DNA of 55,973 bases, from contig CAZINR010000002.1 of assembly GCA_964540655.1 (NCBI GenBank), positions 1,736 through 57,708 on the forward strand, given 5' to 3'. The first letter of the stretch is position 1, and the number at the start of each line of letters is the position of its first letter. This DNA is from an uncultured archaeon (lineage in GTDB: Archaea > Altiarchaeota > Altiarchaeia > JAFGQM01). A model generated the notes under the pieces. That model was not told the DNA's origin and ran no database searches. It saw only the letters and a list, made by a program, of their open reading frames with translations. Shown piece after piece: positions 2,942 to 20,419 of this stretch. Made by a program: the position numbers and the translations under genes.

Positions 2942-3091
2942 TGTATTGAGTGAGCATTAGACATCCCTATGTAAACCGATATTGGTCGTCACTATTTCTC
3001 GCAGGGAATAAACTTATGTCTTGCGGATAACTTATTGCGGAGACAACTATTAATCCCTTAACAGCGATAATAATGGGAGTTCACACATCAA

Positions 3092-3967: not shown

Positions 3968-3968
3968 C

Positions 3969-5282: not shown

Positions 5283-5285
5283 AAA

Positions 5286-6701
5286 ATGGCACGAATAGCG
5301 CTGATAAATTGTCCGCCCAATGACAACCGGGAGTTCATAAGAGATGCGGTTAAATATGATGAGAAGCTCCCACTGGGCCTCTGTTATATAGCCGCGTATC
5401 TCGAGAGGAATGGTCATAACGCCTTCCTTATAGACGCATACGCGGAGGGGATAGACTCGAATGGCATAGCCGACAGGATCAAAAGGCTAAATCCGGACTT
5501 TGCAGGTGCAACCATGTTGCACCCAAATTCGCAGGAAGTTGGTCTTGTGATGTCAAAGATAAAGGAAGTCACACCTAATGTAACGACCGTTGTCGGGGGC
5601 GTACAGCCCACCCTGGAGCCAGAGTCCGTCCTGAAATCAAACCAGGGGATAGATTTGGCGGTGATTGGTGAAGGTGAAATCACGATGAAGGAGATTATGG
5701 ACAATTTTGATGCCAGAAAAGACTGTAGGAAAGTGCAAGGGGTGGCATACCGAAAAGCGGGAGAAGTGCGGCGATCTGCCGCACGGGAGAGAATATCCAA
5801 TCTAGACATATTGCCGTTCCCCGCTTTGGACAAGATACCGCTGGAGAAATACTGGGGTGAAAAGAAGGTTATGTGTATGGTCACTTCCCGAGGATGCCCG
5901 TTCCATTGCATTTTCTGTGCGAGCAGCGTCTTGTGGGGACATAGCATAACATATAGAAGCATAGAAAATGTTATGGCCGAGATAAGGCATTGGAGAGATG
6001 CATACGGATGCGATTTCTTTTATTTCAATGACATGACATTCACGATTGACCGTGGAAGGATCGATGAATTGTGCAGACGACTCACCTCAGAAGGCCTGGA
6101 CATAGAATGGAAATGCCTTACGCGGCTTGACAACCTCGACGAGGCGTTGATAGCAAGAATGGCCGACGCCGGGTGTAGGGAAATGGCCGTCGGCATAGAA
6201 AGCGGCAACCAGGATATGCAAAGGATGATACGAAAGCATCTTGACTTGAAAAGGGTGAAATGCATGATTAGGACATTGAGTTTGAATAATATAAACGTAC
6301 TGGGGCTTGCGATAATAGGCTTTCCCCGGGAGACGCCAGAGCAGATCCTGGATACTTTGAACTATCTCATATCTCTCAAAGAGGAAGGCATGAAGGAATT
6401 TGATTTGTTCCAAGCAACGCCCTATCCCGGGACAGAGCTTTACAGGATGTGCAATGGTGCTAACCCGCAATCCCACATAATAGAGGACGGCAACTGCTGC
6501 AAGGAACCAGTTATGAAGAAACAGATGAGAAGACACTCCTTCATGCCTTGTTCTTCACCAAACGAGTTCTTCAGCAGTGAAGAGCTGAGGGGGATAATCC
6601 ATCTTACCTACGAACGATTTAAGAGTGGCAAACCGTTATCTATAGACGATTTGAATCTTGGTTGTGAAAAATGGAAGAATCTTCATATGTCAGTGAGCTG
6701 A
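5286..6701 (+). CDS. B12-binding radical SAM enzyme (class B), second paralogue
   Basis: Same architecture, with TSRGCPFHCIFC. The N-terminus MARIALINCPP... parallels the upstream paralogue. Confidence 0.85.
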   Translation: MARIALINCPPNDNREFIRDAVKYDEKLPLGLCYIAAYLERNGHNAFLIDAYAEGIDSNGIADRIKRLNPDFAGATMLHPNSQEVGLVMSKIKEVTPNVTTVVGGVQPTLEPESVLKSNQGIDLAVIGEGEITMKEIMDNFDARKDCRKVQGVAYRKAGEVRRSAARERISNLDILPFPALDKIPLEKYWGEKKVMCMVTSRGCPFHCIFCASSVLWGHSITYRSIENVMAEIRHWRDAYGCDFFYFNDMTFTIDRGRIDELCRRLTSEGLDIEWKCLTRLDNLDEALIARMADAGCREMAVGIESGNQDMQRMIRKHLDLKRVKCMIRTLSLNNINVLGLAIIGFPRETPEQILDTLNYLISLKEEGMKEFDLFQATPYPGTELYRMCNGANPQSHIIEDGNCCKEPVMKKQMRRHSFMPCSSPNEFFSSEELRGIIHLTYERFKSGKPLSIDDLNLGCEKWKNLHMSVS

Positions 6702-8218
6702 ATAGCAAGGTGTTAAGCAACCTGCCAAAGAGAGTGTACGTATACGATTGCACGCTCCGAGATGGGGAGCAAACACCAGGAGTGGTATTTACGGAGGAGG
6801 AAAAAGTGCTGATTGCCGAAGCATTGGAAGGTGCTGGCGTTGACTGTATAGAAGCTGGTTTCCCGACCAACTCCAGTGGCGAGGAGCATGCTGTCGCACG
6901 CGTGGCTGCTTTAGGGCTTAAATCCAAGGTTTCTTGCCTGAGCCGCTGTTTGCCTGGCGATATAGAAGCCTCAATCAGATGCGAGCCGGATCTCGTGCAT
7001 TTGTTCATCTCTACATCGGACATACATCTGCAACATCAGATTAAAAAGAGCCGGGAGGAGGTTTACGGCATGGCCGTAGAGTCTGTGAAAAGCGTAGTCG
7101 ACAGAGGGTTCGAATGCCTGTTCTCGGCAATGGACGCAAGCAGAAGCAATTTGGACTACCTTAAAAAGGTGTATGCGGGAGTAGTTAATGCAGGAGCAAC
7201 TACCATAAACGTTCCTGAGACGGTGAATTCCCTTTGCCCCGAAGCAATGAAATACCTGGTGGGCCAATTAAAGGGGATAGGTGCCAGGATAGACGTGCAT
7301 TGTCATAACGATCTGGGGATGGCCTTGGCAAACACGCTGGCTGCGATCGAGGCTGGGGCCGAGGAGGCACAAGTCACTGTCAATGGCCTTGGTGAGAGAG
7401 CTGGCAATACCAGCCTAGAGCAGCTGGCGGTCATACTCGAGCTGGTGTATGGCGTCAAAACGGGCATAAAGCTGGAGAAGCTCACTGAGTTGTCAAACCT
7501 CATGGCAAAGTACAGCGGCATAGAACCATACCCGCTGCAGCCGATAATAGGAAGGAACGCTTTTGCGCACGAAAGCGGGATTCATGTGCAGGGCATACTT
7601 GAAAGGGCCAAGACTTTCGAGGCCTTTGCCCCAGAGCTCGTTGGTCAGAGGAGAAGACTAGTGCTAGGTAAACATGCCGGAAAGCATGGGGTAGACGCAA
7701 CTCTCAAGTCGATGGGATACTCTGGGTACTCTTCAAGTGAATTGGGAGCCATCAGCAGGCGGGTGAAGGAACTAGCAGAAAAGCAAAAAAAGGTATTCGA
7801 TGAGGACATCAGGGCTATTGTAGACTCGGCACTCGGTAAGGGTCAAGATGAAGGGCCAATCAAACTGGAGGAAATTGAGATAATGACGGGCAACAAGGTG
7901 AAGCCAAGGGCCAAAGTCAGCCTTCGGGTCAATGGCAAGCTGATTGAAGCATGCGGGAATGGAGTAGGGCCGGTAGATGCCGCCATAAGCACAATAGAAT
8001 CGGCGATAAAGGGGTTTGCAAACATAAGGCTCGTGAAGTATGAACTTGCCGCAATAACCGGCGGTACGGATTCCCTAAGCGACTGCAAAGTCACGATAAA
8101 AGACACTATGGGGGAGGACTATGTGGGGCACGCTGTGCATGAGGACATTGTGCAGGCTTCTATCAAGGCCATAATAAACGCCATGAACTCTGCAATGAGG
8201 CGTAGGGGGGGACGGTGA
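6671..8218 (+). CDS. 2-isopropylmalate / homocitrate / citramalate synthase family enzyme (DRE-TIM plus LeuA-type C-terminal domain)
   Basis: YDCTLRDGEQTPG, HCHNDLGMALANTLAA and HESGIH motifs; 515 aa including the regulatory domain. Confidence 0.85.
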   Translation: MEESSYVSELNSKVLSNLPKRVYVYDCTLRDGEQTPGVVFTEEEKVLIAEALEGAGVDCIEAGFPTNSSGEEHAVARVAALGLKSKVSCLSRCLPGDIEASIRCEPDLVHLFISTSDIHLQHQIKKSREEVYGMAVESVKSVVDRGFECLFSAMDASRSNLDYLKKVYAGVVNAGATTINVPETVNSLCPEAMKYLVGQLKGIGARIDVHCHNDLGMALANTLAAIEAGAEEAQVTVNGLGERAGNTSLEQLAVILELVYGVKTGIKLEKLTELSNLMAKYSGIEPYPLQPIIGRNAFAHESGIHVQGILERAKTFEAFAPELVGQRRRLVLGKHAGKHGVDATLKSMGYSGYSSSELGAISRRVKELAEKQKKVFDEDIRAIVDSALGKGQDEGPIKLEEIEIMTGNKVKPRAKVSLRVNGKLIEACGNGVGPVDAAISTIESAIKGFANIRLVKYELAAITGGTDSLSDCKVTIKDTMGEDYVGHAVHEDIVQASIKAIINAMNSAMRRRGGR

Positions 8219-8841
8219 AGGAGACAAAAGAAAGCATTGAGCACCTGGAGCGTGTAGCTGATTGTTTGAGAAAAAATGGGTTCGATGCAAAAGTTTTTAT
8301 CGATCCTAATGGCATGGCCGATTATTTTCTGGATAAGATAGGCGCACATGATACTGTGGGTCTGGGCGGTTCGGTAACTATTGCAGAAACTGGCATAATC
8401 GAGCGGCTGGAGCTCAGGGGCAACATTATCTACAACCCATATGTCCAGCGCACAAGAAAGGAAGAGATGGACACAAGACGGAAGTGTCTACTGTCAGACT
8501 GGTTCATAACTGGGTCAAATGCAGTGACCGAGAATGGCCAGTTAGTCAATGTAGATGGCTTAGGCAGTAGGGTTTCAGCGATAGCATTCGGGCCGAAAAA
8601 TGTTCTGATAGTCGTTGGGAAGAACAAGATAGTGCCTGATGTTGAAGGGGGCTTCCAAAGGATAAAGGATCTGTCAGCACCGAAAAATGCGAAAAGGCGC
8701 GGCAATAAAACACCATGCGTAGACGGTAGATGCCCAGGATATGTCCCCGGGGAATGCATATGCAACATCCAGTCAGTTATTAATGGAGATGCTGCAGGCA
8801 GGATACATATCGCGCTAATATATCAAGAAATGGGCTATTAA
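8215..8841 (+). CDS. LUD-domain (LutC/YkgG-like) protein
   Basis: GTG start overlapping the upstream stop. TGSNAVTENGQLVNVDG and a C-terminal Cys cluster resemble the lactate-utilisation LUD family as I remember it. Confidence 0.5.
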   Translation: MKETKESIEHLERVADCLRKNGFDAKVFIDPNGMADYFLDKIGAHDTVGLGGSVTIAETGIIERLELRGNIIYNPYVQRTRKEEMDTRRKCLLSDWFITGSNAVTENGQLVNVDGLGSRVSAIAFGPKNVLIVVGKNKIVPDVEGGFQRIKDLSAPKNAKRRGNKTPCVDGRCPGYVPGECICNIQSVINGDAAGRIHIALIYQEMGY

Positions 8842-8855
8842 CGGAGCGGTTAAAG

Positions 8856-9959
8856 ATGTACGGCATAGAATCGGATGTATGCAAATTCATAGCAGACGGA
8901 GGTTATGGCAGGATTGTCTACGTCCCTTCGAGCAGTCTGGCTAAGTTGATAAGCCTCATTGAAAAAAGATGCCATTGCGAAGTCGCCACAAACGAGTCGG
9001 AAGCTACTGGGCTTGCAATAGGGTACCATCTTGCGGGCATAAAGCCGATTTTGCTTTGCCAGAGCGATGGTGTTGCTGTCATGTTGAATACCCTGTGCTC
9101 CACATGCTTGCCTTACGGGATAGACCTGCTAGTTCTTGTTGACGTTAGGGGCGGCCCCGAAGAGGAGAATCCCGTACACATACCCTTCGGCCAAGGCTTG
9201 CCGTCAGTTCTGGACGCACTGGGGTTCCCATACCTGGAGGTTCGGAAGAGCGCGGATTTTGAGGGTTTTGTGCTCAAACATGCGAGCAAGCCTAGGCAGA
9301 CACCCTTTTTCCTTTTGATATACCCATCCGCACTGACAAAGCCTGAAAAGAAGAACCCGCGGGATGTTCTGCAGAATCCAGATACAGGTGATACGACAAT
9401 TGATGCATTGAAAAAGATGTTTCCAAGCTCCAAATTCGTTTCCAGTCTTGGCTTGACTAGCCGGTTGCTGCATGGGGGCTGGGACGATAAGCACAATTTT
9501 TATGTGCTGGGATCAATGGGCGATTCCTTGGGCATTGCAAACGCTATATCAAAAACTAATAGCCGAAAGACTGTATGTGTAGTGGGCGATGGAGAGCTCT
9601 TAGCGGGCCTTGGCACTCTGGCAAAGATTGCTATTGACAAAAGTAATCTGCTTGTCGTAGTCCTGGATAACGAATGTCATCTGAGCACCGGAGGACAGAA
9701 CACCCTAACAGCAGAGGGTCTGAGATTTGATTTGGTAGCCAACGCTGTTGGTATCAAGCACACTAAGATGCTAGATGGTGTGGGGCAACTAAACGCCGAG
9801 CTTAATATTATACGCAAGAGCAGGGAGCCCGCTCTCATAGTCATAAAGGCGCAGCGGTGCGTACCGAGTTATCCTAGGATAAGAATGTGCCCTAACGAGA
9901 TAAAACATAGGTTCATGAAAGGATTCGAAAATAGCCCTATTAATGGGGACAAGGGGTAG
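8856..9959 (+). CDS. ThDP-dependent 2-oxoacid decarboxylase, fused alpha-beta, of the phosphonopyruvate / sulfopyruvate decarboxylase family
   Basis: N-terminal NESEATGLAIGY-type PYR domain. C-terminal GSMGDSLG...VGDGELL...LDNE ThDP-binding motif. Confidence 0.7.
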   Translation: MYGIESDVCKFIADGGYGRIVYVPSSSLAKLISLIEKRCHCEVATNESEATGLAIGYHLAGIKPILLCQSDGVAVMLNTLCSTCLPYGIDLLVLVDVRGGPEEENPVHIPFGQGLPSVLDALGFPYLEVRKSADFEGFVLKHASKPRQTPFFLLIYPSALTKPEKKNPRDVLQNPDTGDTTIDALKKMFPSSKFVSSLGLTSRLLHGGWDDKHNFYVLGSMGDSLGIANAISKTNSRKTVCVVGDGELLAGLGTLAKIAIDKSNLLVVVLDNECHLSTGGQNTLTAEGLRFDLVANAVGIKHTKMLDGVGQLNAELNIIRKSREPALIVIKAQRCVPSYPRIRMCPNEIKHRFMKGFENSPINGDKG

Positions 9960-9960
9960 A

Positions 9961-10980
9961 ATGGCGGCATCTTGGAACTTATTGGACTGCACATTAAGGG
10001 ATGGCGGATCAACCATCGGGTTTAACTTTCAGTTTGATGTCATCAATAGGGTACTTACTGGTCTTTCAAACGCAGGCATTGATTATGTCGAGCTGGGCTA
10101 TAGATCGGGGTCAGGGAGCGTACATGTTGAGAAGCCAGGCCCCACAGCTGACGTGAACAGAAGCTTCTTGGAGCAGATTGACTTCAGCACAAAAATAAAA
10201 AAGGCCGTGATGATAATACCTGCGGTTGCCAAAACCGAAGATTTGGATGTCCTTGCCGAATTCGGCATAGACCTTGTTAGGATAGCCGTGTACCCGCATA
10301 ACTTCGAAAATGCCATGGCCTTCGTTGATGCTGCGCTTAGATTGGGGCTTGAGTGCAGCGTGAATCAGATGGCCTCAAGCTATATGAGTGCAGATGACTT
10401 AGTGAAAAATGCTCTCGCAGTACAAGAGTGTGGCGCAAGCGTCTTTTATTTTGCGGATTCGTATGGGCATTTCATGCCGGAGGATGTCAACAGGCGAGTA
10501 GAGGCGTTAAAAGAGCAGTTAGATATGGAAATAGGCTTTCACGCCCATAACAACCTATCGCTGGGTTTATCAAATGCTATTGCTGCTATACGCTCTGGCG
10601 CAGACTTCATTGACGCCTCTCTTTGTGGCATGGGCAGAGGGGCGGGAAATGTGCAGATAGAGCTATTACCGTTCGTTCTTGATCTGGCAGACTTGAGTCG
10701 CCCGCAGGTTGACAAATCAGCACTGATGGAACTAAGTTCCATAATTGCCCCCCTGCGAAAAAATCCGTATTTGGGCACCGCAGAGATAATCTCTGGATCT
10801 TGCAACCTGCATTTCTTTTTCTATGAGCTCATACAACGGGCATCTCAGAAACTGGGCGTTTCGGAAATGGACATTGCGAGGGGGCTAAGTGCAATAAAAC
10901 CAAAGAAGGTAAGCGAGGAGCTGACCTTTGAAGTCGCTAGACAGATTTTATCCAACCATGGAGATAACATTCAGATCTAA
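9961..10980 (+). CDS. DRE-TIM metallolyase, 4-hydroxy-2-oxovalerate aldolase (DmpG)/HMG-CoA-lyase-like
   Basis: ATG at 9961 just after the upstream stop. LLDCTLRDGG and FHAHNNLSLGLSNAIAA motifs; DmpG-like length. Confidence 0.65.
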   Translation: MAASWNLLDCTLRDGGSTIGFNFQFDVINRVLTGLSNAGIDYVELGYRSGSGSVHVEKPGPTADVNRSFLEQIDFSTKIKKAVMIIPAVAKTEDLDVLAEFGIDLVRIAVYPHNFENAMAFVDAALRLGLECSVNQMASSYMSADDLVKNALAVQECGASVFYFADSYGHFMPEDVNRRVEALKEQLDMEIGFHAHNNLSLGLSNAIAAIRSGADFIDASLCGMGRGAGNVQIELLPFVLDLADLSRPQVDKSALMELSSIIAPLRKNPYLGTAEIISGSCNLHFFFYELIQRASQKLGVSEMDIARGLSAIKPKKVSEELTFEVARQILSNHGDNIQI

Positions 10981-11368
10981 GGGCTTCGGAGACTTGCAAG
11001 ATATCACAAAAGAAGTAGAAAAGATTGCGAACCTATCGAGCGTATCAAGCGGCATCATAACCCTATTCATCAGGGGCTCAACAACAGCCCTTGTGATTTA
11101 TAAAAATGATGCGGGTTCCATCCAAGATTTGATGGAAGCGCTTGGGGATCTCGCCCCGGCTGACAAAATATACAAGCACGAACAGACTTCGGGCGACAGC
11201 AATGGCGCGTCGCATATAAAGTCGGGGTTATTGGGGCCCTGCCTCACAATACCCTTTGTGGAAAACGAACTTTGTATCAGCAAAACACAAACAATTTTTG
11301 CCGTAGATTTTGATCCAAAGGAATCAAATCGAAGTATAATTGCGTGTGTATCAAAGGCGGAAGTCTAG
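10958..11368 (+). CDS. YjbQ/UPF0047 family protein (secondary thiamine-phosphate synthase-like)
   Basis: ATG at 10958. Family-typical GIITLFIRGSTTAL...NGASHIKSGLLGP. Confidence 0.7.
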   Translation: MEITFRSKGFGDLQDITKEVEKIANLSSVSSGIITLFIRGSTTALVIYKNDAGSIQDLMEALGDLAPADKIYKHEQTSGDSNGASHIKSGLLGPCLTIPFVENELCISKTQTIFAVDFDPKESNRSIIACVSKAEV

Positions 11369-11435
11369 ATGTAAAGACAGCTTGGATGCATCATTATCTT
11401 ACGGATGAGCAAAGCGGTTTATCATGGTCTCCGAG

Positions 11436-11561
11436 ATGAAGACGAAGATCTTCATAGTCCGTCACGGCAAATCCGAGGGTAACCTGAAGAGATGCTTCCA
11501 GGGCAGGGATGATATGCCTCATATACCCAGCAATTTGCATATTCTCTCAATTGCCACATAG
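11436..11561 (+). pseudogene. N-terminal remnant of a histidine phosphatase (PGAM-like) gene
   Basis: Own translation MKTKIFIVRHGKSEGNLKRCFQGRDDMP carries the RHG catalytic motif. It then runs into the 3' end of the convergent gene and stops after 41 codons. The full-length paralogue at 22058-22645 starts MRAILVRHGKTERSE. Confidence 0.55.
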
Positions 11562-12193
11562 CGGGTGCCCAGGAAATACTGCAGCTGTTTCCTTGCCAAA
11601 TCCATCCCGCCTATGAGTTCATCGAGCAGCTGCCCAGTGCCGATCAGTTCGGCGTATAACTTAATGTCGGGCATCTGCTCGCCGATAGAACTGTAATAAT
11701 TCGCAACCTTTCGGGCAGAATCCCCATCAACTGGAAGAATCAGTCTTAGATCCTTTTCATGTCTGAATGGATTGCGCATTCCGGGAATAAATCTCTCGGG
11801 TATCCCAGCTTCCTTTAATGCCGCGTCCCTATAGCCCATCTGGACAGAGTGTATGCGCGTCTTGTTAGCTGCATAGAAACGGATCACTTCGCCTTTGATA
11901 CTTTCAGGTATCTCCGTCTCGGGTTTTCCGAGCCACGAGCTTATAAGGTCCTCTGCGACTTTCCCATCTTTTTCGCCAAACAAGCGCTCGTATACGCCTA
12001 TGTTGATGATGTCCAGCTTTTTTGGTGTGGGCGTGCTATTTGCCATGATTTTGTCGACGTCAATTCCTGCGCTGTCAAAAATCAAACCCTCCGGAAGGCG
12101 CATCTTGGATGCAGTCCACCTGAATACTGCCTGAAAGGTCGGGCTGCGCTGGATGTTGCCGGAATCCACGCACCTGATTATGCATTTCTCCAT
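11519..12193 (-). CDS. hypothetical protein with a low-molecular-weight phosphatase-like N-terminus
   Basis: CVDSGNIQRSP resembles the LMW-PTP P-loop CxGNxCRS, but the C-to-R spacing is longer. The functional call is weak. Confidence 0.4.
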   Translation of the reverse strand: MEKCIIRCVDSGNIQRSPTFQAVFRWTASKMRLPEGLIFDSAGIDVDKIMANSTPTPKKLDIINIGVYERLFGEKDGKVAEDLISSWLGKPETEIPESIKGEVIRFYAANKTRIHSVQMGYRDAALKEAGIPERFIPGMRNPFRHEKDLRLILPVDGDSARKVANYYSSIGEQMPDIKLYAELIGTGQLLDELIGGMDLARKQLQYFLGTRYVAIERICKLLGI

Positions 12194-12295
12194 TGCATTC
12201 TAGTTAGAGTTCAGAAAAAGAAAAGCCGGCTTTTGATTAACCTCTTTTGACCGGGATGGCGCCCTTTGACCTCAAAGCACGAAGCCTGCTGCCAT

Positions 12296-12536
12296 CTACA
12301 AAGCCGCCAAAGCTAAGGAAGCAAGTGAAGGTCCAACCAATGTAACTGGTTTGAACCGAGGATAATGTCCCGCCTCCCGGAATCTAGGCGCTTCGCGCCT
12401 GTTTTCAGTTTTCTGTCCTGGGTCTTCCTTGGGTTTCCAGCACGAAGGTCCCGACGGGACCTTGTGCGCAGGTTTGTCTTCGGCAAACCTCGCGTTCTCG
12501 GTTTTCGAACTGGTCATTTTGAACACTGTTTTAGCA
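12296..12536 (+). repeat. junction repeat JY3
   Basis: Core at 12368-12381. Hairpin aggcgc-ttc-gcgcct at 12386-12400. Double-module at 12441-12494. Terminal box ggtcattttgaacac. The left flank lacks the GAAGAC arm. Confidence 0.8.
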
Positions 12537-12863
12537 TTAATAACCAAACCGCCTTTCGTAGTTCTTGTGGTCAAGCCACTCTAAGATGATGGAAATAATC
12601 TTCACTTCATCATCCGCCACAGAGTACATCAGCCTCCACCCGTTGGGCAGGTCGTATTTCCAGAGGTTGTCAATCCCATACTTCTTATAATCCTTTGAGA
12701 TTAGCCTTTTCGGCACATGGATTCCTGCTGAATGATCTCTCTTAAGATCCTCAATAGCCCTACTGATATATTCATGGAGGCGCTTGTCCTCATACTTTCC
12801 CCCTTTCAGATTTTCGTATGCTTCCTTAAGCTTTTCATCAACAAAATAGACCTCAGTTTTCAT
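12537..12863 (-). CDS. RelE/ParE-superfamily toxin-like protein
   Basis: 108 aa with C-terminal WRLMYSVADDEVKIISIILEWLDHKNYERRFGY, typical of a RelE-fold toxin. 4-nt overlap with the upstream partner. Confidence 0.55.
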   Translation of the reverse strand: MKTEVYFVDEKLKEAYENLKGGKYEDKRLHEYISRAIEDLKRDHSAGIHVPKRLISKDYKKYGIDNLWKYDLPNGWRLMYSVADDEVKIISIILEWLDHKNYERRFGY

Positions 12864-13117
12864 GCCTTCAACCTCGGATTGCTCGTTATCCTCCTTACAA
12901 GTTCAGGGTTCCAGACCCAGATTATCTGTCCGTCCTTTATTATGATCTTTCCAGAGTCCTGCAGGTAATCAAGGATGACGTTGAACGTCTGGTACATAAC
13001 CTTCTTCGGCAGGGATTTCCAAAGCTGCTTCTTTGTAGGATAGTCCTCATGTTCTTGTATGGCTTTTTCCACCATCAACACCGTATCCAACCTCGGATAA
13101 TGTAAAACCGCTTGCAT
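12860..13117 (-). CDS. antitoxin candidate (winged-helix-like)
   Basis: 85 aa, translationally coupled upstream of the toxin-like gene. Confidence 0.45.
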   Translation of the reverse strand: MQAVLHYPRLDTVLMVEKAIQEHEDYPTKKQLWKSLPKKVMYQTFNVILDYLQDSGKIIIKDGQIIWVWNPELVRRITSNPRLKA

Positions 13118-13157
13118 TTTTCAGTTATATATGTTTATACAATTAAAGAATAAAAAG

Positions 13158-13490
13158 GTTTTCTGTTTTCTAACCGGTCGGCGGTCAGGAAGACTCAAGA
13201 CCGATAACTGAAGACTGAAAATAATCCCGCCTCCCGGAAGGTATGCCCTTCGGGCATGTTTTGGGTTTTCTGTCCTGCGTCTTCCTCAGGTTTCCAGTTC
13301 ACTGTTTTCTGTGAACTGGTCATCTGGGAAACCCCGGGTAGGTTAATGAAAGTACAAAGAAAAATTACGCGCTCCGCCCGAATGTCACAAAGTGACATTG
13401 GGCGCAACTTCGCTTCGCGAAGTTCGCGCGCTAAGGACATAAAGGTAGGTGTTACACTACGACATGGACCATATGTAGTGTAAAACGCTC
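13158..13490 (+). repeat. junction repeat JY4
   Basis: taaccggtcggcgg terminus and GAAGAC arm. Core at 13225-13238. Hairpin atgccc-ttc-gggcat at 13243-13257. Hairpin at 13294-13319. Box gtcatctgggaaacc, then A-box acaaagaaaaa. Module at 13378-13429. TTACACTAC hairpin at 13452-13482. Confidence 0.85.
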
Positions 13491-13556
13491 ATTCTGTCTA
13501 ATAAATAGGCACTACAAAATTTAAAAGGTTTTTATTTCTGTAGCGCCTAAGTATAC

Positions 13557-14489
13557 ATGTCTTATTTAAGAGAAAAGAGGTCTGGAAAGAAAACTGGAAT
13601 TTACCTCACACAGAGTATACGTCTCAACGGTAAAATCAGGAATATTAGTGTTCTTTTGGGGTACAAACCAATAAGCGACATAGATAAATTAAAAAAACAA
13701 AAAGAGCCGATACTGAAAAAGAAGATAGAGCGGCTTCTATCTTCCGAAAGAGAGGATTACATGCTTTTGTCCGAGCAGGAAAGGCAAACCCTAAAGAATC
13801 TGGCTGAAGCTTATCAAAAAGCCCTCAAAAAATTCGACCCCGTCACCAAACAGAAATATCTTGACTGGTTCCTGACGCAGTTCACTTACGATACCAATGC
13901 GATAGAAGGCTCAAGCGTCCCTCTGGAAGAAGTCGGCCTGATATTATTCGACAAGGTAGTGCCTGCAGACAGGAATTTGAGGGAGGTCTACGAGGTCCAG
14001 AATCATAAGAAGGCATACGATTTCATAAACAAATATGTGGGCGATCTCAACTTTAAATTCATTATGGATGTCCATAGGCGCTTGATGTCAGAGATTATCT
14101 CAGATGCGGGAAAGACGCGTAAGGTTCGCGTGTTTGTAAGGGGATCTGACTTAAAGCCGCCCAAACCGGAAGACGTCTCAAAACATCTGGAAAATCTGGT
14201 CAAATGGTACAAGTCAAACAAATCTTTGCACCCTGTCTTGTTGGCAGCCCATATCCACTCGGAATTCGAGAGGATCCATCCGTTCAGGGACGGAAACGGC
14301 AGGACCGGCAGGCTCCTTCTTAACTTCATATTAATAAAGAACGACTATCCGCCGATAAACATACTGAATGAGAAGAGGGGCGCGTATTATTCGGCCCTTA
14401 GGGCTTGGGACAAAGGCGAAAAAAGACCTTTTGTCGAGCTTGTAATCTCATACATAAAAGACAGTGTCGGTTTTGTCACTAATCCCTAA
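13557..14489 (+). CDS. Fic/DOC family protein (AMPylase-type) with an internal inhibitory helix motif
   Basis: HPFRDGNGRTGRLL matches the Fic motif HxFx(D/E)GNGRxxR. TNAIEG matches the (S/T)xxxE(G/N) auto-inhibition motif. Confidence 0.9.
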   Translation: MSYLREKRSGKKTGIYLTQSIRLNGKIRNISVLLGYKPISDIDKLKKQKEPILKKKIERLLSSEREDYMLLSEQERQTLKNLAEAYQKALKKFDPVTKQKYLDWFLTQFTYDTNAIEGSSVPLEEVGLILFDKVVPADRNLREVYEVQNHKKAYDFINKYVGDLNFKFIMDVHRRLMSEIISDAGKTRKVRVFVRGSDLKPPKPEDVSKHLENLVKWYKSNKSLHPVLLAAHIHSEFERIHPFRDGNGRTGRLLLNFILIKNDYPPINILNEKRGAYYSALRAWDKGEKRPFVELVISYIKDSVGFVTNP

Positions 14490-14855
14490 CCTGTCGGCGG
14501 TCAGGAGGACTCAAGACCGATAACTGAAGACTGAAAATAATCCCGCCTCCCGGAATCCAGGCGCTGCGCCCGAAGGTCCCACCGGACCTTGGGCGCAACT
14601 TCTCTTCGAGAAGTTCGCGCGCCTGTTCACGAGCTTCGACTTCGTCGAAGCTGTGCGCAGGTTCTCCTTGAGAACCTCGCGTTCGGTCTTCTGTTCTGGG
14701 TTTTCCTCAGGTTTGCAGTCCACGGTTTTCTGTGGACTGGTCATCTTGGAAACACCCGGACTTTAACGAAAATACAAAGAAAAACTTATGCGCCTCCGGC
14801 GCAAAGGACATGAATCAGTGTTACACTACAACACGGGCAAGTGTAGTGTAAAACG
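14490..14855 (+). repeat. junction repeat JY5
   Basis: Core at 14541-14554. Double-modules at 14571-14621 and 14628-14681, the latter identical to 1333-1386. Hairpin at 14716-14739. Box gtcatcttggaaacaccc. A-box. TTACACTAC hairpin at 14821-14851. Confidence 0.85.
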
Positions 14856-14956
14856 CTTTTTAATTCTTGAATCCATAATATTAACACCACCTCACGGTGC
14901 CGAACCGTGAGACCCTCCTGGGCAACTTCGGTTGCGTCCAGGGGGACTTTACTCTT

Positions 14957-15643
14957 ATGACCAACAAGATACGCGTCAATTTCTACATAGATGGCTTCAA
15001 CGTTTATCACAGATTAAAGGACTACACCGAAAAGGCTGGTATTTGCTACAACTGGCTCGATTACAAAAGCCTGCTCAGTTCTCTACTCAAAGAGGGCGAG
15101 GAACTGGGCGAGATCTATTTCTTCACGGCCATATCTCAAAGGCACGGCGCTGACTCGGTTGTCAGACACAACAAATACGTCACCGCCCTAGAAGCCACTG
15201 GCGTTAATGTAGTCAAGGGCTATTTTACCAAGAAATACCGCAAGTGTAAGGTCAGGAGTTGCACTTATAAGGGCTTTAAGGAGTATCCTGACGAAGAAGA
15301 AAAAGAGACTGATGTCAAGATTGCTGTCCAAATGCTGAAAGATGCGGTAAATGATAAATTTGACAGATGTTTCCTGATGTCGGGCGATAATGATTTCGGC
15401 CCCGTTCTATTAGCGATTAAGGAATTGCGTCCAGACAAACAGGTCGGTTTGATAACGCCTCCTTTTGAACCCGGTATAGTGGACCTGATTAAGATGAGTG
15501 GGTTGAAAAAGGCATGTAGCGAGTGCAAAGGCCCGAGAATAAAAATGACGTTTGATAGACTTAAGGGGCATTCTTTGCCAAAGGAGGTAACAATTCCTGG
15601 AAAGCCGCCTGTCAAGATGCCAAAGGGTTATCGTACTTTTTAA
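14957..15643 (+). CDS. NYN-domain (LabA-like) putative RNase
   Basis: ATG at 14957. The N-terminus RVNFYIDGFNVYH and the later SGDNDF are the acidic motifs of NYN/LabA-like PIN-fold proteins. Confidence 0.65.
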   Translation: MTNKIRVNFYIDGFNVYHRLKDYTEKAGICYNWLDYKSLLSSLLKEGEELGEIYFFTAISQRHGADSVVRHNKYVTALEATGVNVVKGYFTKKYRKCKVRSCTYKGFKEYPDEEEKETDVKIAVQMLKDAVNDKFDRCFLMSGDNDFGPVLLAIKELRPDKQVGLITPPFEPGIVDLIKMSGLKKACSECKGPRIKMTFDRLKGHSLPKEVTIPGKPPVKMPKGYRTF

Positions 15644-15950
15644 CCGGTCGGCGGTCAGGAGGACCCAAGACTGAAGACCGCAGACCCTTTTCGCCCAAAG
15701 GCGAAAAGTAAAATCCCGCCTCCCGGAATCCAGGCGCGAAGCGCCTGTTCTCAGTTTTCTGTTTTGGGTCACTAGGTTCATCTGCGATGAACCTGTGCGC
15801 AACTGCCTTGCGGGCAGTTCGCGTTTCCCCAGGTTCCCAGTTCACGAGATTCGCCTTTAGCGAATCTGTGCACAGGTTCTCGGAGAGAACCTCGTGCTCT
15901 GCCGGAACCATCTCGGAAACACCTAGAGCGTAAGGAAAGCACAAAGAAAA
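15641..15950 (+). repeat. junction repeat JY6
   Basis: The taaccggtcggcgg terminus contains the NYN stop codon. Hairpin cttttcgcc/ggcgaaaag. Core at 15714-15727. Hairpin aggcgc-gaa-gcgcct at 15732-15746. Double-modules at 15770-15823 and 15843-15896. A-box. Confidence 0.85.
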
Positions 15951-15983
15951 ACATTTTTATCGACTAAGCCCCTAATATACACT

Positions 15984-16241
15984 ATGGATACACTGAAAGT
16001 CAACATATCCTTTCCGGTAGAGATGTACAAAAACGCCAAACTATTGGTGGACAATGGGTTTTATGGCTCTTTTTCCGAGATGGTTCGTAGTGGGATCAGG
16101 AATGAGATAGATATGCAGAGCCAGATAAATCCCGAATTCGTTGAGTCTATAAAAGTCGCTGAAGCTAGCGGATATAAAGACTACAAAACTGGGGAGGACA
16201 TGATTAGAGATCTCCACAAGGCCGCCAAGGAGAAGCGATGA
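15984..16241 (+). CDS. ribbon-helix-helix (CopG-like) antitoxin
   Basis: MDTLKVNISFPVEMYKNAKLLVDNGFYGSFSEMVRSGIRNE is a paralogue of the ORF at 25523-25789. ATGA overlap with the toxin. Confidence 0.6.
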   Translation: MDTLKVNISFPVEMYKNAKLLVDNGFYGSFSEMVRSGIRNEIDMQSQINPEFVESIKVAEASGYKDYKTGEDMIRDLHKAAKEKR

Positions 16242-16519
16242 TAGGCAACAAGGAATACAAGCCAAAACGCTCTAAATACTTCGAGAAGGATTATGTCTCG
16301 CTTGTGAGAAAGAACAGAGGTTTGCAAGAAAGACTTGACAAGAAGATACTGCAGATACTCGGGATGCCTGAGGTTTACAAGAACCTGAAGAAGCCCTTAC
16401 AGAGGTACAAAGCCGCGCATGTCGACCCATTTGTCATCACCTTCAGGATAGACGGGGATTATGTGAGGTTTGTCAGGGTTGCACACCATGATGTGGTTTA
16501 TGGGCTTCCACACGATTAG
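16238..16519 (+). CDS. RelE/ParE-superfamily toxin (HHD-type C-terminus)
   Basis: 93 aa; FVITFRIDGDYVRFVRVAHHDVVYG; coupled to the RHH gene. Confidence 0.6.
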   Translation: MIGNKEYKPKRSKYFEKDYVSLVRKNRGLQERLDKKILQILGMPEVYKNLKKPLQRYKAAHVDPFVITFRIDGDYVRFVRVAHHDVVYGLPHD

Positions 16520-16705
16520 TTCTCAGTTCTCTGTTTTTGCATTCCAACCGGTCGGCGGTCAGGAAGACTCAAGACTGAAGACTGAAAAAGGTCCCGCCTC
16601 CCGGAATGTAGGACCTTCGGCCCTGTCTTCGGTCTTTGTGTGGTTCACTGTCTACGGTCTTGTCTATAGGCCTGACCATTTTGAACACCGGACAGACTAA
16701 CGAAA
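16520..16705 (+). repeat. junction repeat JY7 (short form, no double-modules)
   Basis: ccaaccggtcggcgg plus GAAGAC arm. Core at 16592-16605. Hairpin aggacc-ttc-ggccct at 16610-16624. Terminal box gaccattttgaacacc. Confidence 0.8.
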
Positions 16706-16718
16706 CTATTGACATGAC

Positions 16719-16988
16719 TCATCTGATTCTGCGAAGATGTTTATATGCATTTCCTCTGTAGTCGACCATACGGATGACCAATAGGTCCTCCTTCTTATAA
16801 TAATCGACGAAGAGTCTGTAATCGCCGACGCGAATCTTAAGGAAGTCATAGCCTTTGACCGACTCAAGATATCTCTCCACGCTTTTGCCTATCTTCTGGT
16901 TGACTGTAGTGTAAATACGGTTGGCTATGTGTTTGTCGAGCTTCCTAAGATAATCTCTGGCTTTGGGGTCCCAGATTACGCGACTCAT
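16719..16988 (-). CDS. RelE/ParE toxin
   Basis: 89 aa; KIRVGDYRLFVDYYKKEDLLVIRMVDYRGNAYK is the classical RelE/ParE core. Confidence 0.7.
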   Translation of the reverse strand: MSRVIWDPKARDYLRKLDKHIANRIYTTVNQKIGKSVERYLESVKGYDFLKIRVGDYRLFVDYYKKEDLLVIRMVDYRGNAYKHLRRIR

Positions 16989-17179
16989 CCTCCGAACTCG
17001 GCCTTCATCTCTTCGTTTGAGATGAATTCGTCATTGGGCCTGTTCCTGGATTCCTCCACTCCTTTGACTATGTGGTCTGACAATTCACCCTCTTCGTCCA
17101 GGACTAATCTGATATGCGCAACCTCCTTCTTGAGGCCCATCAACTCTTTATGTATCTGATTCAGAGTCACGTTTTGCAT
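16985..17179 (-). CDS. antitoxin candidate
   Basis: 64 aa with a 4-nt overlap upstream of RelE. Confidence 0.5.
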   Translation of the reverse strand: MQNVTLNQIHKELMGLKKEVAHIRLVLDEEGELSDHIVKGVEESRNRPNDEFISNEEMKAEFGG

Positions 17180-17219
17180 TCTTATCGCATTAAGTTGATA
17201 GTCTAGGGATTAAAATTAA

Positions 17220-17500
17220 GGCTTTCCGTCTTGTCCGGTCGGCGGTCAAGTCGGTCTTCAGTCTTGGGTTTTCAGTCCTCGCTTGGATATCAAAAACCGA
17301 AGACTGTAAACTGTAGACCACTCCCCGAAGGGGAGTAAAATCCCGCCTCCCGGAGGGCCGCTTCGCCCGAAGGTCCCACCGGACCTTGGGCGCAACTTCT
17401 CTTCGAGAAGTTAGCGCGGCTGTCTACGGTCTTCTGTCTAGAGTCTTGGAAAGGTCTTCTGTCTACGGTCTGCGTAGACAGAGCCATTTTGAATCCTGCA
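17220..17500 (+). repeat. junction repeat JY8
   Basis: ccggtcggcgg. An inverted arm copy gtcggtcttcagtcttgggttttcagtcc. Hairpin ctcccc-gaa-ggggag. Core at 17341-17354. Module at 17368-17418, equal to 14571-14621 with 1 difference. Hairpin gtctacg/cgtagac. Box gccattttgaatcc. Confidence 0.8.
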
Positions 17501-17614
17501 CACTTACGATTCTGATATTATAAACCCATGACTAACAAAGGTGGCTGCAGATTGACAATATGGCATTTTTTAACAAGAAAGCCTTATATTAGCGCAAAAT
17601 TTGTAGGTGATAAA

Positions 17615-18313
17615 ATGACCGCGGCCACGAAGGAAATCGGAAAAATCAACAGGATAGGCATAGGCATACCTGAAGTGAACAAGCTGATTGAAGGCGGCAT
17701 ACCGGAATGCTCAATAGTCTTGCTCGCTGGTGAGCCTGGAACTGGAAAGACGATATTTGGCCTCCACTACATATCGGCCGGGGTAAAAGAAGGCGAAAAA
17801 TGTGCTTATGTGGCAATAGAACAAAATCCTGAGGAACTAAAGATACAAGCAAAGATACTCGGAAAGGATGTGGGCCCTGCGGAGTTTATCTCAGCCAAAG
17901 ACATTAAATATGATCTCGGTCTCGGCAAAAAGCCTGAAGACGTTATTGAGAAAATCAAACTCGTTCTTGAGAAGCTACAAAAGCTTAAAGTAAAGAGGGT
18001 AGTTATCGATTCTGTCAGCTCCCTTCAACTGGAGGATGGAATCAAGGCTAGGCTTGTTGTCAAAATGCTCGTGGACGGGTTGAAGAAACTGGGCGCAACC
18101 GCAGTGATTACAGGAGAATCCTTGAACGGAATTTACCCCGATGAGGTCACCCCTTTCCTCGTTGACGGGATGATTGTGCTTAAGAGGACTCACATTGGGA
18201 ACGAAACTCGCCGGGTTTTGGAGGTGATTAAGATGAGGCTTACGGACTGTAACGACTCGCCCCAACAATTTGAGATAACTAAAAAGGGAATTAAGATCAT
18301 TGCGGGCGAATAA
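17615..18313 (+). CDS. KaiC/RecA-superfamily ATPase (single-domain, archaeal KaiC-like)
   Basis: ATG at 17615. Walker A GEPGTGKT, Walker B-like VVIDSVS. The GIPE...VLLAGEPG context is typical of KaiC-like proteins. Confidence 0.7.
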   Translation: MTAATKEIGKINRIGIGIPEVNKLIEGGIPECSIVLLAGEPGTGKTIFGLHYISAGVKEGEKCAYVAIEQNPEELKIQAKILGKDVGPAEFISAKDIKYDLGLGKKPEDVIEKIKLVLEKLQKLKVKRVVIDSVSSLQLEDGIKARLVVKMLVDGLKKLGATAVITGESLNGIYPDEVTPFLVDGMIVLKRTHIGNETRRVLEVIKMRLTDCNDSPQQFEITKKGIKIIAGE

Positions 18314-18342
18314 GCTATACTCGCCCCTCCTTCATTCTTGAA

Positions 18343-20329: not shown

Positions 20330-20419
20330 TGTAGGGGCACTATTTAGTGGGTTGGGAACTAAAAACAGAATTTGATTAAGGTTGCTGGCAAAATATGGTG
20401 CCTTTGATTGGGGCTAGCT

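What the first reader, a model, noticed from the sequence alone, without database searches (positions are those of the whole stretch)
12386..12400. Core-adjacent hairpin keeps its structure and loop while the stem sequence changes between copies (covariation)
One to five nt after the tRNA-derived core (5 nt in most copies), every Tyr-type junction has a short hairpin with a TTC or GAA loop. The stems differ but stay complementary:
- catgctc/gagcatg at 2398-2414
- aggcgc/gcgcct at 12386-12400
- atgccc/gggcat at 13243-13257
- aggcgc-gaa-gcgcct at 15732-15746
- aggacc/ggccct, with one mismatch, at 16610-16624
- ggcgc/gcgcc at about 14562-14572

Compensatory change in paralogous copies is the classical signature of selection on structure rather than sequence. 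In tRNA orientation the hairpin sits where the T-arm would be. Each junction therefore looks like a hairpin plus a single-stranded acceptor-like 3' tail.
Basis: seen in the sequence. Interest (0 to 1): 0.75.

Follow-up and report, generated by a model that had tools for sequence, protein, structure and literature searches.

The report
Mini-hairpin beside archaeal integration core
A 15-17 base hairpin that keeps its pairing while its letters change sits four bases from the tRNA-derived crossover site of small mobile gene cassettes stacked behind an archaeal tRNA-Tyr gene; it is real, but it lies inside a short translated leader of an integrase-type recombination site and related genomes do without it, so it is an accessory and not a tRNA T-arm mimic.

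Summary
The hairpin is real. Five of the seven tRNA-Tyr-type junctions in the window carry a 6-7 bp stem with a 3-nt loop, always 4 nt from the 14-nt core. Four more copies occur in related archaeal contigs. Across the 9 copies, 61 of 63 stem cells pair and 5 of 7 pairs show changes on both sides; 0 of 500 shuffles match this.

The sixth listed example (14562-14572) is not that hairpin, and junction 17341 lacks it.

The context changes the reading. The window is an archaeal, probably Altiarchaeota-related, tRNA-Tyr gene followed by a tandem array of integrase-less cassettes. In relatives, a PF00589 tyrosine recombinase follows the same tRNA, and its reading frame runs through the core (..REAG..). 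The arm that holds the hairpin carries a conserved GGTG+ATG leader ORF. This ORF is in frame with the core in 9 of 10 junctions. The hairpin is exactly five codons of that leader.

Homologous arms in two related genomes and in the window's second array lack the hairpin. Two other junctions keep the true T arm. So it is a structure-maintained, optional module. It is not a T-arm surrogate required for recombination.

Its function is unresolved. My best guess is a transcript-boundary or insulator element. Rivals are a DNA-level recombination accessory and a palindrome maintained by template switching.

The parts
20506..20616 (-). tRNA-Tyr(GTA) gene with intron. Its last 14 nt (TCCGGGAGGCGGGA) are the attachment core.
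   Evidence: Rfam tRNA, 50.3 bits. Sequence read. ARAGORN misses it.
12368..12381 (-). Core copy at the junction of the finding. Other copies are at 2381-2394 (1 mismatch), 13225-13238, 14541-14554, 15714-15727, 16592-16605 and 17341-17354.
   Evidence: 9 matches against 2.6 expected; 0/100 shuffles reach this.
12386..12400 (.). Core-adjacent hairpin AGGCGC-TTC-GCGCCT (the finding). On the tRNA-sense strand it reads AGG CGC GAA GCG CCT, which is codons R-R-E-A-P of the leader.
   Evidence: (DNA fold -9.0 kcal/mol).
2398..2414 (.). Hairpin copy CATGCTC-TTC-GAGCATG.
13243..13257 (.). Hairpin copy ATGCCC-TTC-GGGCAT.
15731..15747 (.). Hairpin copy CAGGCGC-GAA-GCGCCTG. It has the same stem as 12386 with the loop inverted.
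16610..16624 (.). Hairpin copy AGGACC-TTC-GGCCCT with one uncompensated mismatch. Metagenome copies L126/L128 have the perfect AGGGCC/GGCCCT. The leader of this junction is also frameshifted.
14565..14597 (.). Larger module hairpin (TGCGCCC-G-AAGGTCC-CACC-GGACCTT-GGGCGCA). It replaces the small hairpin at junction 14541. The equivalent at about 17364-17392 serves junction 17341.
12296..12517 (-). Leader ORF of the P arm: GGTG-type SD + ATG, MTSSKTENARF..QKTENRREAPRF|REAG.. It reads through the hairpin and the core. Equivalent ORFs are 2306-2479, 13195-13323, 14511-14744, 15612-15911 and 17290-17487, all on the minus strand.
12401..12440 (.). T-rich heptamer repeats (GTTTTCA GTTTTCT GTCCTGG GTCTTCC) on the + strand directly after the hairpin. 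Inverted GAAGACT-type heptamers lie left of each core (e.g. 13189-13222).
13174..13187 (.). CCGGTCGGCGGTCA motif marking the outer end of the P' arm. There are 6 copies: 2310, 13174, 14490, 15644, 16548 and 17235.
   Evidence: 6 matches against 0.32 expected.
2395..20505 (.). Tandem array of seven integrase-less cassettes. Cargo: a phosphonate-type cluster, a YoeB-like TA pair, Fic, NYN, RHH-ParE, a ParE TA pair, and KaiC-like+V4R+UbiA.

Best explanation
What it is (well supported, about 0.85). The hairpin is a small GC-rich palindromic module. On the tRNA-sense strand it is 5 codons with the centre codon GAA. It lies in the 'P arm' of small integrase-less cassettes that have piled up, by site-specific recombination, at the 3' end of a tRNA-Tyr gene.

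The recombination system belongs to a PF00589 tyrosine-recombinase family. In this family the att core lies inside the 5' end of the integrase reading frame. The P arm supplies the promoter region, a GGTG Shine-Dalgarno sequence, the ATG and a 25-60 codon leader. The core encodes ..(I/F)REAG... The P' arm continues into the integrase body (DIYGLE..). The window's cassettes keep both arms but have lost the integrase, so they must be moved in trans.

Relative to hairpin-less homologues, the hairpin is a 12-nt in-frame insertion. It is one member of a family of A..(GAA/TTC)..T mini-hairpin modules that populate these arms.

How it works (inferred, about 0.3-0.35). Pairing is maintained because the folded strand matters, not the encoded peptide. 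The peptide varies freely: RREAP, RRFAP, MPEGH, MLEEH, RAEGP, LAEGQ, MPERH.

The most likely role is a transcript-boundary or insulator element bracketing the att core. On the cargo-sense (+) strand the hairpin is immediately followed by GTTTT-type T-rich heptamers. A mirror-image hairpin plus GTCTTC heptamers follows the core on the other strand in many P' arms, just where tRNA transcription must end. Transcripts that cross the core in either direction would meet a stem followed by a U-rich tract.

It is not needed for recombination itself.

The confidence value given (0.35) refers to the functional claim. The identity and context claim stands at about 0.85.
For: Array and core.

Cassette cargo.

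Cassette mobility:
- The Fic cassette sits in different array contexts in the window, L128, L170, L171/172, L173 and L174/175.
- The L056 array has a different order from the window.

Integrase next to tRNA-Tyr, with the frame open from REAG into the conserved body:
- Seen in L086, L165, L166 and L169.
- L169 has no start codon between the core and DIYGL.

Leader ORF:
- The ATG is in the REAG frame with 0 stops in 9/10 junctions. The other two frames hold 16 and 13 stops.
- ATG-to-core distances are 73, 85, 106, 133, 136, 184 and 190 nt, all equal to 1 modulo 3.
- The leader peptide M(T/V)SSKTVN(C/W)KP.E..EQKT(Q/E)N is conserved across genomes.

Pairing and covariation of the hairpin.

Optional nature.

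Terminator-like geometry:
- The scan flags 2398, 12385 and 13238 on the + strand.
- The 7th pair alternates C-G and U.G, and L169 has U.G at pair 19-33. These pair only on the + strand.
- Reading outward from the core, hairpins are mirrored on the two sides. Loops on the + strand are TTC in 9 of 10 TTC/GAA triloop hairpins of P arms and GAA in 3 of 3 triloop hairpins of P' arms.
Against: - Archaeal RNA polymerase terminates at oligo-T without needing hairpins (established knowledge). The T runs here are short: T4 in 5 of 9 copies.
- Terminator-like sites as a class are not enriched in the region (24 against 21 in shuffles).
- Two of the five window hairpins follow cassettes with no + strand gene to terminate.
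- cGAAg triloops are best known as exceptionally stable DNA, not RNA, mini-hairpins (own knowledge). This favours a DNA-level role.
- Hairpin-less relatives apparently work fine.
- No transcript data are available.
Confidence: 0.35

Rival explanations
1. DNA-level recombination accessory (closest to the first reader). Mini-hairpins on both sides of the core fold in single-stranded or supercoiled DNA. They shape the attP site, for example as a bend or hinge between the core site and the heptamer arms, or as a surrogate for the lost T-arm inverted repeat. In this way they modulate integrase synapsis or directionality.
For: - The register is fixed, 4 nt from the core, in all 9 copies.
- The two window junctions without it have a larger hairpin within 9-10 nt.
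- Many P' arms have a hairpin 3-7 nt after the core: CTTTTCGCC-TTTG-GGCGAAAAG, CTCCCC-TTC-GGGGAG, CCCTTTCC-TTC-GGAAAGGG, CTGCCC-TCC-GGGCAG.
- On each side, the strand running 5'->3' toward the core carries cGAAg or GNA-type loops. These are known as very stable DNA triloops (own knowledge).
- Whole junctions fold as a forked structure with the core between two hairpins (z = -3.3 and -4.1 for two of five).
- The 12-nt insertion roughly preserves the helical phase between the core and the heptamers.
Against: - Homologous arms without any hairpin occur in L170, L174 and the second array. These include the tRNA-proximal, presumably newest, cassette of L174.
- The stems are too short (6-7 bp) for stable cruciform extrusion from duplex DNA (inference).
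- A tyrosine recombinase with a duplex core site (AAATCC-GGGAGGCG-GGATTT, seen in the sequence) needs no folded strand.
Confidence: 0.25
2. No cellular function. The hairpin is a small palindromic insertion, selfish or accidental, whose perfect pairing is created and kept by template-switch (quasi-palindrome) mutation during replication. Only in-frame versions are tolerated in the leader.
For: - It is a discrete 12-nt insertion relative to hairpin-less homologues.
- Similar single and double hairpin modules are inserted in variable numbers in the arms, and also at 40404-40446 and 52213-52257 in the core genome.
- Copies 12386 and 15732 have identical stems and an inverted loop. This is a footprint described for template switching (PMC8794818).
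- Template switching can produce multi-base 'compensatory' changes in one event (same paper).
Against: - Eight distinct stems occur at one conserved site with only 2 of 63 unpaired cells. One of the two unpaired cells lies in a copy whose leader is also frameshifted, W16605. This suggests that pairing decays when the junction decays.
- The loop is strongly non-random: TTC or GAA in 13 of 24 triloop hairpins of the junction regions.
- The module is retained in several genomes.
Confidence: 0.2
3. mRNA-level control of the leader or integrase. The hairpin, together with the other leader hairpins, folds in the sense transcript. It tunes translation of the leader-integrase ORF, or couples translation to read-through of the T-rich start of the P' arm, as an attenuator would.
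For: - The hairpin lies in a frame-conserved translated leader.
- A second covarying hairpin sits 6 nt after the ATG: CAGTTCAC..GTGAACTG against CAGTCCAC..GTGGACTG.
- P' arms begin with T runs directly after the core, e.g. ATTTTACTTTT.
Against: - The window's cassettes have no integrase to regulate.
- The hairpin is absent from integrase-proximal junctions seen so far (L166, L169-18781).
- The inverted-loop copy is tolerated.
Confidence: 0.12

Closest known systems
SSV-type ('suicidal', type I) archaeal integrases (SSV1, pTN3, pT26-2)
   Same: - The att site, a tRNA 3' end, lies inside the integrase ORF.
- Integration at the tRNA separates an N-terminal piece that carries the start codon from the catalytic piece that then abuts the tRNA (PMC8371274, PMC7253208).
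   Different: - The integrase here hits only PF00589, not PF16795, and looks XerC/D-like.
- The N-terminal piece is only a 25-60 aa leader. The whole conserved body is in the C piece, and P0010 starts at M-DIYGL.
- The hosts look like Altiarchaeota and DPANN-type archaea, not hyperthermophiles.
- Large tandem arrays occur, and a tandem insertion restores a start codon (L166). Tandem insertions were 'never observed' for the known suicidal integrases (PMC7253208).
Integron cassette arrays and attC sites
   Same: - There are many small cassettes, often single-gene and rich in toxin-antitoxin pairs, in tandem at one attachment site.
- The junction repeats keep their structure while their sequence varies.
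   Different: - There is no IntI and no R''/L''/L'/R' organisation.
- The core is a duplex-type tRNA-derived site.
- The hairpin is optional.
- Cassettes carry their own arms on both sides.
Integrase-less cis-mobilizable elements and tandem accretion at tRNA genes (CIME-type; arrays of tyrosine-recombinase elements, PMC6563490)
   Same: - The elements are flanked by att repeats and lack integrase.
- They accumulate by re-use of one site.
   Different: - The cassettes are miniaturised (0.75-3 kb, one of 10 kb).
- They carry a conserved, frame-maintained leader module. It is identical over 130 nt on two different cargos in L126 and L128.
Intrinsic-terminator-like hairpins and REP/BIME-type extragenic palindromes
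   Same: - A GC-rich stem with a small loop is followed by a T-rich tract.
- The structure is conserved while the stem sequence is free.
- Related modules are dispersed in intergenic DNA.
   Different: - The host is archaeal.
- The module lies inside an ORF.
- No conserved REP foot and no RAYT gene was seen.
- The T tracts are short.
d(GCGAAGC)-type GNA-triloop DNA mini-hairpins (own knowledge, not tested here)
   Same: A C-GAA-G loop and closing pair occurs on the strand running toward the core in most copies.
   Different: Those are defined biophysically. No biological role at att sites is known.

Membership tests
SSV-type suicidal integrase system | The attP core lies inside the integrase ORF | tested here: met
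   The frame ..REAG.. is open from the core into the conserved body in L086, L165, L166 and L169. In L169 no start codon lies between the core and DIYGL.
SSV-type suicidal integrase system | Integration leaves int(C) at the tRNA and int(N) at the far junction | tested here: met
   In L169 the order is tRNA-Tyr, then the int body, and 9 kb further a junction at 18781 with an ATG-initiated ORF ..SPVQI|REAG.
SSV-type suicidal integrase system | Catalytic domain of the Phage_integr_3 (PF16795) type, superfamily 25_02 (PMC8371274) | tested here: not met
   hmmscan of the L086 integrase gives only PF00589, E = 1e-17. Precomputed Pfam for the 120 listed homologues gives PF00589, PF13495, PF02899, PF22823 and PF13240, never PF16795.
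SSV-type suicidal integrase system | No tandem insertions at one site (an empirical property, PMC7253208) | tested here: not met
   There are seven cassettes behind one tRNA in the window, and arrays in L169, L170, L171 and L174.
Integron (attC / IntI) | An IntI-type integrase next to attI | tested here: not met
   No recombinase is present in the window. The recombinase in relatives sits at a tRNA 3' end.
Integron (attC / IntI) | An obligatory folded attC with R''-L''/L'-R' boxes (RYYYAAC / GTTRRRY) | tested here: not met
   The heptamers are GAAGACT/GTCTTCA, not GTTRRRY. The hairpin is absent from homologous junctions.
tRNA T-arm mimic | A 5-bp stem and 7-nt loop directly 5' of the acceptor strand, using CCGGG of the core as its 3' half | tested here: not met
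   The stem is 6-7 bp and the loop 3 nt. There is a 4-nt spacer and the core TCCGGG is left unpaired.
Structured element under selection for pairing | Compensatory changes beyond shuffled and slid controls | tested here: met
   61/63 cells paired, 5/7 pairs with changes on both sides, 0/500 shuffles. The sample is small (9 related copies), and no R-scape test could be run.
Intrinsic terminator-like element | A GC-rich stem immediately followed by a T/U run on the transcribed strand | tested here: inconclusive
   Three of the five window copies are flagged on the + strand. T4 is present in 5/9 copies. The class is not enriched over shuffles, and no transcript ends are available.
REP/BIME-type palindromic elements | Dispersed extragenic copies with a conserved foot motif and a RAYT-type transposase | tested here: inconclusive
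   Related double-hairpin modules lie at 40404-40446 and 52213-52257. Only 56 kb of the genome is available. No RAYT was seen in the window.
Integrase-less cis-mobilizable cassette | att repeats on both sides, no recombinase, and the same unit in different contexts | tested here: met
   Searches show the repeats and the absence of a recombinase. The Fic cassette occurs in at least 6 contexts.

The most novel reading that the evidence does not exclude
Archaea related to Altiarchaeota and DPANN may carry an integron-like gene-capture platform at tRNA genes, built on a XerC/D-like integrase whose ORF spans the att core.

Each incoming integrase-less cassette would bring a promoter-SD-ATG-leader module. 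After insertion at the tRNA, this module is fused in frame to whatever lies behind the next core. It could therefore re-arm a resident start-less integrase, as seen in L166.

The cGAAg mini-hairpins that bracket the core would be DNA-level structural determinants that tune this recombination.
Probability: 0.15. Interest if true: 0.85.

Novelty: new variant of a known kind. Interest (0 to 1): 0.6.

Why it matters
The hairpin on its own is a modest accessory element. Following it, however, exposes an apparently undescribed arrangement with three features:
- An att-inside-ORF integrase layout occurs outside the PF16795 'suicidal' superfamily, which was thought to have arisen once.
- Long tandem arrays of miniature, integrase-less cassettes occur, whereas tandem insertions were reported as never observed for known suicidal integrases. 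Their cargo includes toxin-antitoxin pairs, Fic, NYN, restriction enzymes and a whole phosphonate-type cluster.
- A leader ORF is kept in frame across the crossover site even in cassettes that have no integrase.

If this holds, it gives a testable model for how poorly known archaea shuffle defence and metabolic genes. It also offers a clean natural system for separating selection on nucleic-acid structure from template-switch mutation, because hairpin-bearing and hairpin-less homologous sites can be compared.

Tried and rejected
1. The genome-contig scan with GAAGAC-N(8-38)-core was too loose. Only L056, L086 and L101 were useful.
2. Three viral-contig scans returned only chance matches with no similarity to the window.
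3. The metagenome scan gave 11 loci, of which 3 were real (L120, L126, L128).
The array left of position 1 and the missing ~15 kb of the 71.6-kb contig could not be read.
5. At first I rejected the minus-strand ORFs as spurious, because two similar DNA stretches were read in different frames. That was an artefact of taking the longest ORFs. Frame-anchored analysis reversed the conclusion.
6. Integron attC reading: rejected (no IntI, wrong boxes, optional hairpin).
7. T-arm mimic: rejected on geometry and on the hairpin-less homologues.
8. Strand assignment from G.U pairs: the 6-bp stem pairs equally well on both strands. Only the 7th pair and L169 favour the + strand, which is weak evidence.
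9. A search for an integrase inside the window with Pfam and NCBIfam on all larger ORFs found none.
10. Rfam at the gathering threshold finds only the two tRNAs.

Full report
**1. The observation**

The window contains two intron-bearing tRNA genes that ARAGORN misses and Rfam finds. They lie at 20506-20616 and 26185-26303, both on the minus strand.

The first is tRNA-Tyr(GTA). Its last 14 nt are TCCGGGAGGCGGGA, read as TCCCGCCTCCCGGA on the + strand. This sequence recurs at 2381 (1 mismatch), 12368, 13225, 14541, 15714, 16592 and 17341 (0/100 shuffles give as many matches).

- CATGCTC-TTC-GAGCATG
- AGGCGC-TTC-GCGCCT
- ATGCCC-TTC-GGGCAT
- (C)AGGCGC-GAA-GCGCCT(G)
- AGGACC-TTC-GGCCCT (one A.C mismatch)

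The sixth example, around 14562-14572, is not this hairpin. There the left arm AGGCGC is fused to a larger module hairpin (about 14565-14597). Junction 17341 likewise has only the larger hairpin, 9 nt away.

As single-stranded DNA, 40-nt segments containing the five small hairpins fold at -4.7 to -11.1 kcal/mol.

**2. Covariation**

On the seven copies first available, 95.9% of stem cells pair and three pairs change on both sides.

Two more copies came from related contigs: L169-19542 (TTGGCC-TTC-GGCCAG) and L171-7857 (CATGCCT-TTC-AGGCATG). With these, the nine distinct copies carry eight different stems. Pairing holds in 61 of 63 cells, and 5 of 7 pairs change on both sides (11 cells). The covariation score is 0.595 against 0.231+-0.056 in shuffles, with 0/500 shuffles as high. 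Sliding the partner columns reduces pairing to 16-48%.

The two unpaired cells are in W16605 and L056. W16605 is also the one junction whose leader is frameshifted. The metagenome copies L126 and L128 carry the intact version of its stem.

The structural conservation is therefore real, though the sample is small and the copies are related.

**3. What the junctions are**

Between the cores lie small cassettes:
- a ParE-like toxin with a partner
- a YoeB-like pair
- Fic
- an NYN protein
- RHH-ParE
- another ParE pair
- KaiC-like+V4R+UbiA
- one 10-kb phosphonate-type cluster (PEP mutase and others)

No recombinase is encoded in the window.

Related contigs show that the array is dynamic. L056 has the same tRNA, including its intron, but a different cassette order. 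The Fic cassette occurs in at least six different contexts.

L174 comes from an NCBI MAG whose proteins are labelled Candidatus Altiarchaeota. It is syntenic with the window around the two tRNAs. The lineage is rare: only three homologues of the flanking protein exist among 5.8 billion clusters.

**4. The recombinase and the reading frame**

In L086, L165 and L169, a PF00589 tyrosine recombinase lies directly behind tRNA-Tyr in the tRNA's orientation. In L166 (and its near-identical copies L167 and L168) it lies behind a tRNA-Tyr 3' fragment. These recombinases are 60-67% identical to the L086 integrase used as query.

In all four loci the frame that reads the core as (I/F/W)-R/W-E-A-G is open and continuous into the conserved body DIYGLE(K/R)QY... 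In L169 there is no start codon between the core and that conserved N-terminus.

In L166 an integrase-less ATPase cassette sits between the tRNA and the integrase. The cassette's arm supplies an ATG (MVQIWEAG..) to the integrase ORF.

More distant family members, labelled Nanoarchaeota and Aenigmatarchaeota, also start over a tRNA-3'-like segment followed by AGTCTTC heptamers.

This is the layout known for SSV-type 'suicidal' integrases. Those, however, carry PF16795, are held to be monophyletic, and were never seen in tandem (PMC8371274, PMC7253208). Here only PF00589 is found and tandem arrays are the rule.

**5. The arm that holds the hairpin**

On the tRNA-sense strand, every window-type junction has a conserved GGTG followed 7-8 nt later by an ATG. 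In 9 of 10 junctions this ATG is in the REAG frame, with no stop before the core. The other two frames contain 16 and 13 stops.

The ATG-to-core distances are 73, 85, 106, 133, 136, 184 and 190 nt, all equal to 1 modulo 3. Even arms that have gained one or two double-hairpin modules stay in frame.

The leader peptide is recognisably conserved between genomes: M(T/V)SSKTVN(C/W)KP.E..EQKT(Q/E)N..(F/I)|REAG.

The hairpin is exactly five codons of this leader. It translates as RREAP, RRFAP, MPEGH, MLEEH, RAEGP, LAEGQ or MPERH. The peptide is therefore unconstrained while the pairing is kept.

L126 and L128 share an identical 130-nt arm (core, hairpin, leader, ATG, upstream region) joined to two different cargos. 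The arm behaves as a discrete module.

**6. The hairpin is optional**

Homologous leader arms in L170 (12309, 11024, 7942) and L174 (8260, 7362, 1859) have 7 nt (CCTTTAA-like) where the hairpin-bearing arms have 19 nt. This is a 12-nt in-frame difference.

L174-8260 belongs to the cassette next to the tRNA. If new insertions use the intact tRNA, this is the most recent one.

The window's second array, behind the other tRNA, has the same kind of leader (..RTVNW..KLKTENLSKF|PRRP) and no hairpin.

Junctions L169-18781 and L171-9065 keep the authentic T arm, with 29 nt of tRNA identity.

A role as an obligatory recombination determinant, or as a T-arm mimic, is therefore not supported.

**7. What the hairpin resembles**

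It belongs to a class of A...T-closed stems with TTC or GAA loops. These loops account for 13 of 24 triloop hairpins in the junction regions.

Perfect hairpins are twice as frequent in the window as in shuffles (57 against 26), and 31 of them lie in junction regions. Double-hairpin modules (hpA-GTGCGC-hpB-CGCG) also occur at 40404-40446 and 52213-52257 in the core genome.

Around the core the arrangement is mirror-symmetric. Reading outward on either strand, one meets a hairpin with a TTC or TTTG loop and then GT(C/T)TTC(A/G) heptamers.

With TTTTAC-type P' arms, the tRNA end forms AAATCC-GGGAGGCG-GGATTT. This is a plausible duplex core site with an 8-bp overlap region (read directly from the sequence; an inference).

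**8. Mechanism**

Shown: the array, the in-frame leader, the integrase linkage, the covariation, and the optional nature of the hairpin.

Inferred:
- The cassettes are integrase-deleted derivatives moved in trans.
- The crossover lies in the shared 14 nt.
- The hairpin acts as a folded strand.

I rank the candidate functions as follows.

(a) Transcript-boundary or insulator element, about 0.3-0.35.
- For: a stem followed by T-rich heptamers on the cargo-sense strand.
- For: three of five window copies flagged by the terminator scan.
- For: C-G/U.G alternation that pairs only on that strand.
- For: the mirror partner behind the tRNA.
- Against: archaeal termination does not need hairpins, the T runs are short, and the class is not enriched over shuffles.

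(b) DNA-level accessory of the att site, about 0.25.
- For: the fixed register, hairpins on both sides of the core, GNA-type loops on the strand running toward the core, and the forked fold of whole junctions.
- Against: the hairpin-less homologues.

(c) A neutral or selfish palindrome kept perfect by template switching, about 0.2.
- For: the insertion-like origin and the loop inversion between 12386 and 15732 (PMC8794818).
- Against: the very low rate of unpaired cells, and the fact that one of the two mismatches sits in a copy whose leader has also decayed.

(d) Translational or attenuator control of the leader-integrase mRNA, about 0.12.

**9. Verdict**

The element is a new variant of known kinds: an att-in-ORF integrase system and tandem integrase-less cassettes. 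The hairpin is an optional, structure-maintained module within it.

Noticed in passing
window 2395-12367: A 10-kb phosphonate-type biosynthesis cluster sits as a single cassette between two att cores. It holds PEP mutase, two B12-binding radical SAM enzymes, HMGL/homocitrate-synthase-like proteins, a LUD-domain protein and a TPP-dependent decarboxylase-like protein.
   Followed up: partly
window 24585-26303: A second cassette array lies behind another intron-bearing tRNA (26185-26303, minus strand). Partial 3' copies are at 26092, 25363 and 24585. It has the same kind of in-frame leader (..RTVNW..KLKTENLSKF|PRRP) but no core-adjacent hairpin.
   Followed up: partly
L166:8031-10570 (also L167, L168): An integrase-less AAA_14/DUF4143 ATPase cassette is inserted between tRNA-Tyr and the integrase. 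The cassette's arm provides the ATG (MVQIWEAG..), so the integrase ORF regains a start codon. Such a tandem reconstitution is reported as never observed for known suicidal integrases.
   Followed up: partly
window 40404-40446 and 52213-52257: Double-hairpin modules of the same architecture as those in the junction arms (hairpin - GTGC(G/C)C - hairpin) occur in intergenic DNA of the core genome. This suggests a genome-wide family of palindromic units.
   Followed up: no
window 12386-12400 vs 15731-15747: The two copies have identical stems and an exactly inverted loop (TTC against GAA). This is a footprint described for template-switch mutation.
   Followed up: partly
window 16592-16680: This is the only junction whose leader ATG is out of frame with the core. 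It is also the only window copy with an uncompensated stem mismatch. The intact version of its stem exists in metagenome loci L126 and L128.
   Followed up: yes
L056:2850-3100 (reverse strand), L131:140-200, L169:9830-9880 and 18690-18760: The repeated motif in the arms differs by element: GAAGACT heptamers in the window, GTTACACTACA in L056 and L131, and GAGTACC/GGTACTC in the integrase-bearing L169 element. In the window and in L169 the motif is inverted on the two sides of the core. This suggests binding sites that co-evolve with a protein.
   Followed up: no
L126:364-507 and L128:34-177: An identical 130-nt arm (core, hairpin, leader, ATG and upstream region) is joined to two different cargo genes in one metagenome. 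The arm behaves as a separate, exchangeable or homogenised module.
   Followed up: partly
L176:9990-10110, L177:7500-7640: Distant members of the integrase family (40-44% identity; proteins labelled Aenigmatarchaeota and Nanoarchaeota) also begin their ORF over a tRNA-3'-like segment followed by AGTCTTC heptamers. The att-in-ORF layout may be family-wide.
   Followed up: partly
window 13290-13323 and 14712-14744: A second hairpin sits 6 nt after the leader ATG and also covaries: CAGTTCAC..GTGAACTG against CAGTCCAC..GTGGACTG.
   Followed up: no
window 20500-20525: With the TTTTAC-type arm, the tRNA 3' end reads AAATCC-GGGAGGCG-GGATTT. This is a perfect 6-bp inverted repeat around 8 bp, a plausible duplex core site for a tyrosine recombinase.
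   Followed up: no
L056, L166, L169, L170: Cassette cargo in relatives is rich in defence genes: a DpnI-like endonuclease, a Vsr + C5 methylase pair, a type I R-M system, PD-(D/E)XK proteins, HEPN/NTase and HicAB.
   Followed up: no
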